From a plasmid: DNA of 64,000 bases. Position numbers: made by a program. Below, piece by piece: positions 51,501 through 54,500 of the stretch (positions within the stretch are counted from its first letter, which is position 1; each line of letters starts with the position of its first letter). The stretch is from the sequence record NZ_CP023785.1; one strand, given 5' to 3'.

Positions 51501-54500
51501 AATAATTATCTGCCGTTACATAAGAAACCTGTTCCGAAAAATGGCGGTCTATACTGACAAATGGTAAATTTGATGATACATATTTATCAATGTCTGAATA
51601 GGTAATACCTATAATTCCGTCTACTTTACTCTGCTTGACCATTTGGATATATTCTTTTTCTTTTTCCGCACTGCCGTTCGCATTACACAAAAAAAGCTTA
51701 TAATTTTTTTGGCTGAGAGCTTCCTCTACATAGTAGGCAAACTCGGAAAAGAAGGGATGCCAAATCGTAGGTAAAATAAGAGCTATTGTATTGCTACTAT
51801 TCGTTTTCATACCTCTGGCATATTCATCAGGCTCATAATTAAGCTCACTAATTGCAGCCATTACTTTTTCTTTGGTAACCTCTTTCACCTTTACTCCATT
51901 TATTACTCTAGATACCGTACCCACACCAACTCCTGCTAACGCAGCAACATCCTTCATAGTAGTTTTCACTTCACGAACAACTCCTCTCAAAAGAATTTCA
52001 GGTATTATTATACCAAAAGAAGGAAACGATTCCAAATTAGCAGGAATATTTTTATTTTAAAATAGATATTAGACGTGAAGCTTTTCGTAAAAAAATTTTC
52101 GTATTCAGATTTACCGGATTGACTCTGTCGCCAATATAGGCCGGCATACTTTGTCAATTTTATTTCATCAGAAAAACGTTCAATTGGACCAATTTCAGCG
52201 AGTATTCCAGCAGCCTAAACAGGACCAATACCTGGGATACTGGTTAAACATTGATACTCCGGTAGCACCACGACTAAGTCGTCAATGGCTTTATCTAAGT
52301 CTTTAATTAATTTTTCAAGATTGGGGTACATGGAACATAGAAACGAAAATGCACGGTAGTGAAAAATTAAAAACACAAGAATCGTTGATTTATTAGTATT
52401 CTTGTGTTTTCAATTTTATACATTCAAAAATAGTATCTGGAACATCCGTGCGAAAATGCACGGTAGGAACCAAAAGACGAACATTCTCAATAATTCTCTA
52501 TATTTAACGGACGTAGTATTCCATTCGATAATTCTTTTTCATAGCGGAAACTATATTTGCCAACAAAATTAATGTGATCACTAATTAATGGAAATTGCTT
52601 GCGTAACACTTCTTCGGAACAGTCGAACCCTTCCGTTTTAATTTGTTCAAAGACTTTTTCTAAATATAGTGAATTCCAATATATGATAGCATTAGTTACT
52701 AATCCTAATGCGTTGAGCTGTTCCTCCATACCGTCGTAATAAGTTTGATAAAGTTTGCCTTTTCTACCATAAAATATATTTCGACATAGAGCATGACGAG
52801 CTTCACCTTTATTTAACTGTTCCGAGCTAGGCTCTCCTAAATAAACACCAAAAGAATTTTTATTGCGCTTAATTTCATTCATTCAAAACCTCCAAAGTAA
52901 ATTATAAGTAGACTTAAAATTTATTTTTAAAAATGCTATGATAACAGTAAAACTACAAGTAAATTTTACATGTAAATTATATCATTTTTTAAAAGGAGTT
53001 TTTATGGCAAAAATTGGATATATTAGAGTGTCTTCACAAGATCAAAATTTAGATCGACAATTGGCAATGATGGAAGACCTTAACATTGATAAATTATTCC
53101 AAGAAAAAGCCAGTGGTAAAGATATCCAGCGACCTGAGTTTCAAAAATTACTAAATTATATCCGAGAAGGTGATTGTGTCATTGTTGCATCACTGGATCG
53201 CCTAGGCAGAGATTATGAAGACATAAAAAATACAGTTACCTTTATGAAACAGAAAAAAGTAGCATTAAAAATACTAGATGCACAGTTTTTAGATTTTAAT
53301 ACTGGAAATGAACTCCTAGATACTGCTATGTTCGATATGTTTTTATCATTGCTAAGTTATATTGCACAAAACGAACGTGAGAAAATCCGTGAACGTCAGC
53401 GGCAAGGAGTATTATTGGCCAAAAAAGCTGGTCGATATAAGGGGCGACCAATTGAATATTCTGAGAACTCAACAGATCCGCAAAAACGATTAGTCTTTAA
53501 AACTGTGGTGGACATGTTAAATCAAGGAGTTCCAGTTGCAGAAATTGCCAAAGAAAATGGTCTCTCTCGACCAACCATATATAAAATAAAGAAAGCGAAT
53601 GATTTGTAGAATTTATACTATATTCATTCGCTTTTCTACCGTGCATTTTCGTTTCTATGTTCCATGTACCCCATATTCTCTATGAAGGAGTTTCAATGTC
53701 ATATTCTTTTTCATTAGTTCTTTATGAACATATTCCCAGTCTACAGGAAGGTAACCTCGTGCTGTTGTTTGTTTTTCCGGAAAAAGATATTCCTGCAGCC
53801 AAGTATCGCTCATATCAGCGGTTAGTTCAGTCACCCCCTTCCTGTCTGCTCGAGAAGTAACTTCTCGAATCGTATGTCTGGAGCTTCCCACAGTTAAACT
53901 AATCGTTCGTTGAGAAATACCGGAAAAATAAAGCTCCAAAATTTTTCGATAGTGAACCAATAAAATAACATTCTGTATAAGTTGTCATACCGAAAGGTAT
54001 GCCTTTCTATTATACAGAAGGTTATTCATCTATTAAATATGAAAGTGGAGCAGTTTGTTGCCCTGGATGGAGCTATCTATTGCCTTGAGTGGAGCAGTTA
54101 TTCACCTCACTGGAGCTATTTATCTGCAATACTCAACTTGTTTAAATTTTTTTTCAGTAACTAATAGGAGTCAATGGCAATACGTACATCCATGTATTCT
54201 AAAGTGGTACAAACAAGGGGATTATCCATCGGTTTTCTTTCAAACGAGCTTAGAGTTGCCCTGAGCCAACTAATAAATAGCAAAACAAGCGAACCGAGAG
54301 AAGGCTTCGCTTGTTTCTGATCAATTCTGTTTAATTTTATCTAGGATCACTTCAAATGTTTCAAAGGTATCTATATCTAACTGGCACAGCCAAAGTAAGT
54401 ATTTCTTTTCCTTATATGTCTAGTCAACAGTGGGGTAGGAGGTGATCAAATTATTGTATCTTGCTCTTTGTTCACTTGATGCTAGCTGCCAGCGTTTCTC

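What the first reader, a model, noticed from the sequence alone, without database searches (positions are those of the whole stretch)
52323..53672. Miniature Tn3-family derivative (GGGG-terminal 37/38-bp repeats, tnpA reduced to its last 131 codons, intact resolvase) plus a second, IS-truncated copy of its tnpR-repeat end at 17216..17814; the repeat also cuts an IS21 istA and a small zinc-ribbon ORF
The terminal repeat GGGGTACATGGAACATAGAAACGAAAATGCACGGTAG occurs three times (52323..52359 inverted, 53636..53672 and 17778..17814 direct). Two copies bracket a 1.35-kb unit: repeat – tnpA 3' stub (minus strand) – res-like region with a 13-bp-stem hairpin (52371..52411) and a partial inner repeat copy (52441..52468) – tnpR – repeat. 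Such transposase-less units can still be mobilised in trans by a related TnpA and resolved by their own TnpR. Both downstream repeats have truncated neighbouring genes (IS21 istA at 53673; zinc-ribbon ORF at 17797), showing the ends have been active. The copy at 17216 proves the unit duplicated before an IS6 insertion removed its tnpR 5' end.
Basis: seen in the sequence. Interest (0 to 1): 0.55.

Follow-up and report, generated by a model that had tools for sequence, protein, structure and literature searches.

The report
Decayed Tn3-family transposon relic with resolvase
This 1.35-kb stretch of an Enterococcus faecium megaplasmid is the worn-down remnant of a small Tn3-family jumping gene that has lost its transposase but kept its ends and its resolvase; it sits at the same spot in every sequenced copy, so it is an ordinary fossil and not a demonstrably mobile element.

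Summary
The sequence features are real. Two perfect 37-bp GGGG-tipped inverted repeats (52323-52359, 53636-53672) bracket a tnpA remnant, a res-like intergenic region and an intact Sin-like serine resolvase gene.

- **tnpA remnant.** The 131-codon ORF is not "the last 131 codons". It is an in-frame internal deletion joining codons 1-24 to the last 107 codons, at a 12-bp GAACARTTRAAY (EQLN) microhomology.
- **Hairpin and inner repeat.** They lie downstream of the tnpA stop and are ancestral to the full-length 3.9-kb transposons. The candidate res is the tnpA-tnpR intergenic region.
- **Copy at 17216-17814.** It is not a duplicate of the unit. It is 91% identical to the unit and 599/599 identical to a different, full-length element found at the same site in other enterococcal plasmids.

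The family is a genuine, active Tn3-family transposon. Full-length copies have 5-bp target duplications (GTTAG, CTAAA), and a 324-bp miniature derivative has one too (AACAT). The unit in this window has none (AGATT vs ATATT). It occupies one locus in all 85 complete plasmids that carry it and in every contig read. Its tnpR is broken by IS630 or IS256 in some sublineages. Verdict: a decayed, non-autonomous relic of TIME-RES-like structure, of low interest.

The parts
52323..52359 (+). Terminal inverted repeat on the tnpA side (37 bp, GGGG tip).
   Evidence: Exact match to 53636-53672 on the other strand, 0 expected by chance. 23 of 38 positions identical to the Tn3 IR.
52370..52410 (-). Hairpin downstream of tnpA. 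It looks like an intrinsic terminator, with a U-tract after the stem in the tnpA sense.
   Evidence: Fold -20.8 kcal/mol, z = -6.6. Present at the same place in full-length relatives L002, L003, L013, L026 and L028.
52433..52468 (+). Inner, tip-less copy of the IR. The inner 16 nt (CGAAAATGCACGGTAG) are identical to the terminal IR. Candidate extra TnpA-binding site.
   Evidence: D13. It is ancestral in full-length elements, and its sequence changes together with the terminal IR variant in L002/L026 (CGAAATAGTGCGGTAG).
52487..52882 (-). tnpA remnant: codons 1-24 fused in frame to the last 107 codons. It lacks the N-terminal DNA-binding region and most of the DDE domain.
   Evidence: Pfam and NCBIfam hits cover only the extreme C-terminus. 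Alignments to full-length tnpA of L002/L003. All 6 differences from the L007 variant are nonsynonymous.
52811..52822 (-). Deletion junction GAACAGTTAAAT (codons EQLN). The same 12-nt motif occurs near both ends of the full-length tnpA.
   Evidence: Alignments A1 and A2. P0040 shows the parental N-terminal (EQLNQFFYLH) and C-terminal (ILEQLNKGEARH) contexts.
52883..53003 (.). tnpA-tnpR intergenic region, the candidate res site with divergent promoters. It has an inverted repeat near tnpA (about 52895-52926), tandem GTAAAW repeats, and the palindrome TTTACATGTAAA (52965-52976) near tnpR.
   Evidence: 5 GTAAAW motifs against 0.33 expected. Promoter-like hexamers on both strands. 85-93% conserved among elements whose tnpR differs by up to 25%.
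53004..53609 (+). tnpR: intact 201-aa serine resolvase of the Sin/Bin3 type.
   Evidence: Pfam Resolvase and HTH_7. Sin/Bin3 structure 2r0q E = 4e-54, against 1e-18 for gamma-delta and Tn3 resolvases. The catalytic Ser aligns.
53636..53672 (-). Terminal inverted repeat on the tnpR side.
52141..52322 (-). Left flank: fragment of an IS110-family transposase gene, cut at the IR.
   Evidence: About 75% DNA identity to annotated IS110 transposases. NCBIfam IS110 profile positions 184-231 of 343.
53673..53960 (-). Right flank: N-terminal fragment of an IS21 istA gene, cut at the IR.
   Evidence: NCBIfam IS21 profile positions 3-80 of 294, E = 2e-5.
17216..17814 (+). Separate remnant of a different, L002-type full-length element: tnpR lacking codons 1-23 (17216-17752) plus the IR (17778-17814). 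It is truncated by the IS6-family element at 16408-17215.
   Evidence: 599/599 identical to L002 and 91% to the unit. An intact element occupies the same site in L027 and L029. IS6 transposase and its ends.
17797..17967 (-). Small zinc-ribbon ORF cut by the IR of the second remnant.
   Evidence: Translation ends 5 codons inside the IR. The homologue reconstructed from pMG2200 is 71 aa.

Best explanation
The unit is a decayed, non-autonomous relic of a roughly 3.94-kb cryptic Tn3-family transposon that carries only tnpR and tnpA and is common on enterococcal plasmids.

An illegitimate recombination or slippage event between two 12-bp GAACARTTRAAY motifs removed about 864 internal codons of tnpA. 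The resulting 131-aa product lacks the DNA-binding N-terminal region and most of the catalytic domain, so the element cannot transpose itself.

All the cis features survive: both IRs, the inner IR-like site, the tnpA terminator, res with its divergent promoters, and an intact Sin-type resolvase gene. The resolvase can probably (inference) still act on its own res. It could contribute to resolving plasmid multimers, or cointegrates made by related elements.

The flanks are two unrelated IS fragments with no 5-bp duplication, so at least one flank was replaced after the original insertion. The unit has since been inherited vertically as a fixed piece of the sucrose-module/IS-debris junction of pLG1-type E. 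faecium megaplasmids.

The fragment at 17216-17814 is an independent remnant of a related but distinct full-length element, cut by an IS6-family element.
For: - Host: the window is an E. faecium megaplasmid.
- Full-length relatives have the order IR - tnpR - res - tnpA (990-995 aa) - inner IR - hairpin - IR and span about 3.93-3.94 kb.
- The deletion architecture follows from alignments A1 and A2 and from the parental sequences visible in P0040.
- TnpA of the family reaches 788 bits on the NCBIfam Tn3 model and its closest solved relative is Tn4430 TnpA.
- TnpR is Sin-like and intact.
- The family is active. Full-length copies have TSDs GTTAG (L026) and CTAAA (L028), and a 324-bp miniature has AACAT (L016).
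- The unit has no TSD.
- It has a single context: 85 vs 86 PLSDB records, the same neighbours in all contigs read, and the same junctions in 3 of 4 metagenome contigs.
- The tnpA remnant is drifting: 6 of 6 differences from the L007 variant are nonsynonymous, and several protein variants exist.
- The second copy is 599/599 identical to L002, and the intact element sits at the same site in L027 and L029.
Against: - Both IRs are still perfect and identical, and tnpR is uninterrupted in most plasmids. A purely neutral relic might be expected to show more decay, so some selection or recent origin cannot be excluded.
- One metagenome contig (L007) shows the unit inverted relative to the istA flank. 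This would mean some rearrangement activity at the IRs if it is not an assembly error.
- Resolvase activity and the res subsites are inferred from sequence only.
Confidence: 0.8

Rival explanations
1. The unit is a currently mobilisable non-autonomous transposon: a TIME-RES-like portable resolution cassette. A related full-length TnpA supplied in trans would recognise its intact IRs, form cointegrates, and the unit's own TnpR/res would resolve them.
For: - Perfect IRs and an intact tnpR/res.
- The family transposes with 5-bp TSDs, and a gene-less 324-bp derivative with TSD AACAT exists (L016). Trans-mobilisation therefore happens in this family.
- Full-length relatives occur on E. faecium megaplasmids.
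- A Pseudomonas precedent, TIME-RES, was captured experimentally.
Against: - No TSD at the unit.
- One locus only in 85 complete plasmids and in all contigs read for three protein variants.
- The full-length type documented on an E. faecium megaplasmid (L029, L002-type) has IRs that differ at 4 positions in the presumed TnpA-binding part.
- No full-length tnpA more than 95% identical to the remnant was found.
Confidence: 0.12
2. The unit has been domesticated. It is retained because TnpR/res serves as a multimer-resolution (stability) system of the megaplasmid, and the IRs and tnpA stub are passengers.
For: - TnpR is closest to Sin. From general knowledge, Sin is a plasmid multimer resolvase of staphylococci.
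- The unit is 100% identical across many plasmids.
- tnpR shows 1 change against 6 in the tnpA stub between two lineages.
- The res region is conserved.
Against: - tnpR is split by IS630 in one sublineage, and it is disrupted or replaced next to IS256 in another. Both sublineages persist (H81, 76, 77).
- At least one other serine recombinase gene lies in the window, at 18338-18955.
- The high identity may simply reflect recent clonal spread.
Confidence: 0.25
3. The repeats are fortuitous, and the ORFs are unrelated to a Tn3-type transposon.
For: None found.
Against: - 0 matches expected by chance.
- The IR shares the conserved Tn3 blocks.
- The ORF matches Tn3 transposase models.
- Full-length relatives carry the same IRs and have TSDs.
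Confidence: 0.01

Closest known systems
TIME-RES, a non-autonomous Tn3-family element with IRs, tnpR and res but no transposase, captured in Pseudomonas (Szuplewska et al. 2014, PMC4133298)
   Same: Tn3-type terminal IRs bracket a resolvase gene and res with no working transposase. It is conceptually a portable site-specific recombination module.
   Different: - TIME-RES was shown to transpose and is described as a hybrid of a TIME and a recombination module.
- This unit arose by a simple internal deletion of tnpA and keeps a tnpA stub.
- It belongs to a Gram-positive lineage with a Sin-type resolvase.
- It shows no TSD and only one insertion site.
TIMEs / IS101-type Tn3-derived miniature elements (PMC4133298; Gomi and Yano 2026, PMC13367494)
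   Same: Derived from Tn3-family transposons, retain the IRs, and depend on TnpA in trans. IS101 and TIME244 carry res-like sequence. The 324-bp element in L016 is a true counterpart in this enterococcal family.
   Different: TIMEs are 50-500 bp and gene-less. This unit is 1350 bp and encodes a resolvase. No enterococcal or Gram-positive TIMEs are mentioned in the 2026 survey.
Full-length cryptic Tn3-family element of enterococcal plasmids (for example on pMG2200 NC_011642, LR962057, pE1_230), reported only as a 'Tn3 family transposase (TnBth1/Tn4430-like)' in PMC9484755
   Same: Same IRs, inner IR, hairpin, res and tnpR organisation. tnpR is 75-91% identical in DNA.
   Different: The full-length elements have a 990-995-aa TnpA and, in two cases, clean 5-bp TSDs. 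The window unit lacks about 864 codons of tnpA and has no TSD.
Sin/Bin3 resolvase with its resH site on staphylococcal plasmids (PDB 2r0q)
   Same: Closest solved homologue of the TnpR (E = 4e-54), with the catalytic serine aligned. The intergenic region has an inverted-repeat site plus tandem direct repeats. From general knowledge of Sin, this resembles the site I / site II layout.
   Different: Subsite assignment here is inferred from motif positions only. This resolvase sits between Tn3-type IRs next to a tnpA remnant.

Membership tests
Tn3-family transposon (as a derivative) | Terminal inverted repeats of about 38 bp with a GGGG tip and a conserved inner block. | tested here: met
   Perfect 37-bp IRs. 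23 of 38 positions identical to the Tn3 IR read from CP067835, including GGGGT and AACGAAAA..CACG.TA.
Tn3-family transposon (as a derivative) | Tn3-type DDE transposase (about 1000 aa). | tested here: not met
   Only a 131-aa in-frame deletion product remains. It matches positions 862-954 of 954 of NF033527. Full-length relatives score 788 bits.
Tn3-family transposon (as a derivative) | 5-bp target-site duplication. | tested here: not met
   AGATT vs ATATT at the unit. Met in relatives L026 (GTTAG), L028 (CTAAA) and L016 (AACAT).
Tn3-family transposon (as a derivative) | Cointegrate-resolution module: site-specific recombinase plus res. | tested here: inconclusive
   An intact serine resolvase gene and a conserved, repeat-rich 121-bp intergenic region. 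Activity was not tested.
TIME / TIME-RES non-autonomous Tn3 derivatives | Tn3-type IRs at both ends and no functional transposase. | tested here: met
TIME / TIME-RES non-autonomous Tn3 derivatives | Evidence of transposition: TSD, or several insertion sites. | tested here: not met
   No TSD. A single context in PLSDB and in the assemblies read.
TIME / TIME-RES non-autonomous Tn3 derivatives | Mobilisation by a cognate TnpA in trans. | not testable with these tools
   Needs a transposition assay.
Sin-like resolvase / plasmid multimer resolution system | Small serine recombinase with a catalytic Ser and a C-terminal HTH. | tested here: met
   Aligned over residues 4-200 with Sin/Bin3 (2r0q). The catalytic Ser is conserved. 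Pfam Resolvase and HTH_7.
Sin-like resolvase / plasmid multimer resolution system | res with a crossover site I (inverted repeat) and an accessory site II (direct repeats). | tested here: inconclusive
   Inverted repeat at about 52895-52926 and tandem GTAAAW repeats at 52946-52984. The assignment is inferred.
Sin-like resolvase / plasmid multimer resolution system | Contribution to plasmid stability. | not testable with these tools
   IS630- and IS256-disrupted tnpR in persisting sublineages argues that it is dispensable.

The most novel reading that the evidence does not exclude
The unit may still be a live, trans-mobilisable "portable resolvase cassette", a Gram-positive counterpart of TIME-RES. 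In this family the conserved inner IR copy, which co-varies with the terminal IRs between lineages, may be a third functional TnpA-binding site. Such a site could control transposition, or rearrangements at the ends such as the inversion seen in contig L007.
Probability: 0.12. Interest if true: 0.4.

Novelty: new member of a known kind. Interest (0 to 1): 0.2.

Why it matters
The significance is mainly for annotation.

- The result explains a "recombinase / hypothetical / transposase" cluster present on very many E. faecium megaplasmids. It is one fixed transposon fossil.
- It defines the anatomy of an unnamed 3.9-kb Tn3-family element that is widespread on enterococcal plasmids, often next to erm(B).
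- It shows that this family decays repeatedly by internal tnpA deletions and has produced at least one TIME-like miniature with a target duplication.
- If the resolvase is active, it could resolve cointegrates or multimers and so affect rearrangements of clinically important plasmids. Nothing here suggests a new mechanism.

Tried and rejected
- **Closer full-length parent.** I looked for a full-length parent more than 95% identical to the tnpA remnant. The closest DNA matches are themselves truncated: L004 (E. faecalis, 96.9%) by another Tn3-family element, and L046 (E. raffinosus, 95.6%) next to IS21 copies.
- **Published name.** I looked for a name for the family. Only generic "Tn3 family (TnBth1/Tn4430-like)" mentions were found. 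NCBIfam gives only the generic Tn3 model.
- **Duplication of the unit.** Rejected on 91% vs 100% identity.
- **Hybrid origin.** I considered a res-mediated hybrid of two elements to explain the discordant flanks. Both IRs are the same variant, and no partner junctions were found in the window, where only three IR copies exist. This stays unresolved.
- **L007 arrangement.** The inverted arrangement is absent from complete plasmids: 0 of 293 matching records span the junction.
- **TSDs in other relatives.** L002, L003, L013 and L044 also lack TSDs. Absence of a TSD is therefore common in this family and is not decisive by itself.
- **Technical limit.** Several fetched loci were not exported to the Python sandbox, so some comparisons were done with the alignment tool or with pasted sequence.
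Full report
**What the window is.**
The 1.35-kb unit is 100% identical to segments of many Enterococcus faecium plasmids of 130-380 kb. From about 28 kb onward the window is collinear with E. 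faecium E39 plasmid p1. The unit lies between a sucrose-type sugar-utilisation module (LacI regulator, ABC transporter, GH32, ScrK) and a stretch of IS debris followed by ISEfm1.

**Checking the observation.**
- The 37-nt sequence GGGGTACATGGAACATAGAAACGAAAATGCACGGTAG occurs exactly at 52323-52359 (+) and 53636-53672 (-), with no matches in 100 shuffles.
- The third copy, at 17778-17814, has 4 mismatches, all in the inner third (I23). The outer 26 nt are identical in all three copies.
- The 131-aa ORF (52487-52882, minus strand) matches only the extreme C-terminus of the Tn3 transposase models (Pfam 299-389 of 389; NCBIfam 862-954 of 954).
- The ORF at 53004-53609 is a complete 201-aa serine resolvase with a C-terminal HTH_7.
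- The hairpin at 52370-52410 folds at -20.8 kcal/mol (z = -6.6). In the tnpA sense it is followed by a U-tract.
- The inner partial repeat is at 52433-52466 (D13).

**Anatomy, from comparison with full-length relatives.**
tblastn with the 131-aa ORF found E. faecalis plasmids whose match covers only residues 21-131. Those loci (L002 = LR962057, L003 = LR962637) carry complete elements. Their order is IR - tnpR (201 aa, divergent) - 120-bp intergenic region - tnpA (990-995 aa) - inner degenerate IR - hairpin - IR, spanning about 3.94 kb. A 3934-nt MAG contig runs exactly from IR to IR. The parent is therefore a cryptic Tn3-family transposon with no passenger genes.

Alignments A1 and A2 show how the remnant formed.
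- The window ORF starts with the authentic tnpA start, ribosome-binding site and first 24 codons (MNEIKRNKNSFGVYLGEPSSEQLN).
- It then continues directly with the last 107 codons (KGEARHALC...).
- The same 12-nt motif GAACARTTRAAY, encoding EQLN, occurs at both places in full-length genes.
- The deletion of about 864 codons is thus in frame and sits in a microhomology.
- A related E. faecium protein, P0040, preserves both parental contexts (EQLNQFFYLH... and ...ILEQLNKGEARH).

The remnant lacks the N-terminal region and most of the DDE domain, so it cannot be an active transposase. That conclusion is an inference from the domain coverage.

The hairpin and inner IR copy lie downstream of the tnpA stop in every full-length relative examined. 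They are ancestral features of the tnpA end, not part of a res site. The candidate res is the tnpA-tnpR intergenic region, 52883-53003.
- It has five GTAAAW motifs where 0.33 are expected.
- It contains the palindrome TTTACATGTAAA.
- It has an inverted repeat near tnpA and tandem repeats near tnpR.
- It has promoter-like hexamers on both strands.
- It is better conserved than tnpR among diverged elements.

**Is it a Tn3-type element?**
Yes.
- The IR shares 23 of 38 positions with the Tn3 IR, which I read directly from a Klebsiella plasmid. The shared positions include the GGGGT tip and the AACGAAAA..CACG.TA block.
- The full-length TnpA of the family scores 788 bits on the NCBIfam Tn3 model. 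Its closest solved relative is Tn4430 TnpA.
- The resolvase is much closer to Sin/Bin3 (E = 4e-54, catalytic serine aligned) than to gamma-delta or Tn3 resolvases (about 1e-18).
- The family generates 5-bp target duplications: GTTAG around a full-length copy in an E. casseliflavus plasmid, and CTAAA around the copy in pMG2200.
- A 324-bp gene-less derivative in an Enterococcus sp. plasmid (L016) keeps the IRs, the inner IR and a piece of res-like sequence. It is flanked by AACAT/AACAT. Non-autonomous derivatives of this family have therefore been moved in trans.

**Is this particular unit mobile?**
Nothing supports that.
- Its flanks are AGATT and ATATT. They belong to two unrelated truncated genes: an IS110-family transposase fragment on the left and an IS21 istA N-terminal fragment on the right. 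At least one flank was therefore replaced after the original insertion.
- In PLSDB, 85 records carry at least 80% of the unit, and 86 carry at least 80% of the unit plus 600 bp on each side. No record shows the unit alone.
- The exact 131-aa ORF is indexed in 1394 collection blocks. All 24 contigs read have the same neighbours.
- Two other protein variants are also always next to the same LacI/sugar-transport genes.
- Three of four metagenome contigs carrying the deletion junction have identical junctions on both sides.
- The fourth contig (L007) has the same istA junction, but joined to the tnpA-side IR, meaning the unit is inverted. No complete plasmid shows this arrangement. It is either a rare inversion between the perfect IRs or an assembly error.

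**Is tnpR kept for a reason?**
Evidence for constraint:
- Between the window and L007 there are 11 differences in 1095 nt.
- Six are in the tnpA stub and all six are nonsynonymous.
- One is in tnpR, one is in res, and none is in the IR.
- This fits a drifting stub and a more constrained tnpR.

Evidence against an essential role:
- One sublineage has tnpR split by an IS630-family element.
- Another has it disrupted or replaced next to IS256 (H81, 76, 77).

A helper role in multimer or cointegrate resolution remains a reasonable inference only.

**The second copy.**
17216-17814 is tnpR from codon 24 onward plus an IR, abutting the end of an IS6-family element at 16408-17215.
- It is only 91% identical to the unit, but 599/599 identical to the full-length L002 element, including the outside flank.
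- In E. faecalis NZ_CP119529 and the E. faecium megaplasmid pE1_230, the same site holds the intact full-length element next to erm(B). That site comprises the zinc-ribbon ORF, a BRCT-domain gene, a serine recombinase and a glycoside-hydrolase-domain gene.
- It is therefore an independent remnant of a different lineage, not a duplicate of the miniature unit.
- The surrounding IS1216-bounded segment of about 7 kb matches a shared region described in PMC9484755.
- The zinc-ribbon ORF is truly truncated. A homologue reconstructed from pMG2200 by removing the transposon is 71 aa. The window ORF stops 4 residues after its second CxxC and runs into the IR.

**Comparison with known elements.**
The closest described kind is TIME-RES of Pseudomonas, a captured non-autonomous Tn3-family element consisting of IRs, tnpR and res (PMC4133298). 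The window unit has the same layout. It differs in four ways:
- it arose by internal deletion of tnpA;
- it keeps a tnpA stub;
- it has a Sin-type resolvase;
- it shows no sign of having moved.

The 2026 TIME survey that I searched does not mention Gram-positive examples.

**Verdict.**
The claims of duplication and of a res-like hairpin region are wrong, and current mobility is unsupported. This is an ordinary transposon fossil on a well-sequenced plasmid family. It is a new member of a known kind and of low interest (0.2).

Noticed in passing
L007 (SKEX01001607.1) 640-900; corresponds to window 52323 and 53673: A metagenome contig carries a variant of the unit about 99% identical, with the same tnpA deletion junction. 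Its tnpA-side IR is joined to the istA fragment at exactly the junction that the tnpR-side IR uses in the window, so the unit is inverted. No complete plasmid shows this arrangement. It is either a rare inversion between the perfect IRs or an assembly chimera.
   Followed up: partly
L016 (NZ_CP187904.1, Enterococcus sp. DIV0210g plasmid) 7260-7583: A 324-bp gene-less miniature element of the same family: IR, inner IR copy, res-like palindrome, IR. It is flanked by a perfect 5-bp duplication, AACAT. It looks like a TIME-type element in a Gram-positive host.
   Followed up: partly
window 52433-52468; L002 6356-6392; L026 1525-1556; L028 1548-1574: The inner, tip-less IR copy next to the tnpA stop is present in all full-length relatives. 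Its inner 16 nt change together with the terminal IR variant (CGAAAATGCACGGTAG vs CGAAATAGTGCGGTAG). This suggests a conserved third TnpA-binding site, or concerted evolution.
   Followed up: partly
L042-L045 (E. faecium contigs) 2841-3902: A second, independent in-frame tnpA deletion derivative (245 aa: about 82 N-terminal plus about 163 C-terminal residues). It sits in a 1062-bp IR-bounded element that has lost tnpR. In L045 the hairpin has also been deleted by recombination between the inner and outer IR copies.
   Followed up: partly
L028 (pMG2200) 1431 and 5364; window 17797-17967: Two independent insertions of this transposon family hit homologous small zinc-ribbon genes. Both lie near (within a few hundred bp of) a plasmid serine-recombinase gene, but at different positions. 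One has a clean TSD (CTAAA). This may be a target preference for this region.
   Followed up: no
L036-L040 and L030-L035 (E. faecium contigs); also H81: In some megaplasmid sublineages the unit's tnpR is split by an IS630-family insertion. In others it is disrupted or replaced next to IS256, adjacent to CBASS-like genes (DncV-like NTase, Sa_NUDIX).
   Followed up: partly
window 16405-24264: A segment of about 7 kb bounded by IS6-family elements (IS1216 type). It carries the truncated tnpR, the zinc-ribbon ORF, a BRCT-domain gene, a 205-aa serine recombinase and a glycoside-hydrolase-domain gene. It matches the 7032-bp IS1216-bounded region shared by E. faecalis and E. faecium that is described in PMC9484755.
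   Followed up: partly
window 17189-17752: An ORF starting with TTG inside the IS6 end reads in frame into the truncated tnpR, giving a 187-aa product without the catalytic serine region. It is probably meaningless but could be expressed from the IS end.
   Followed up: no
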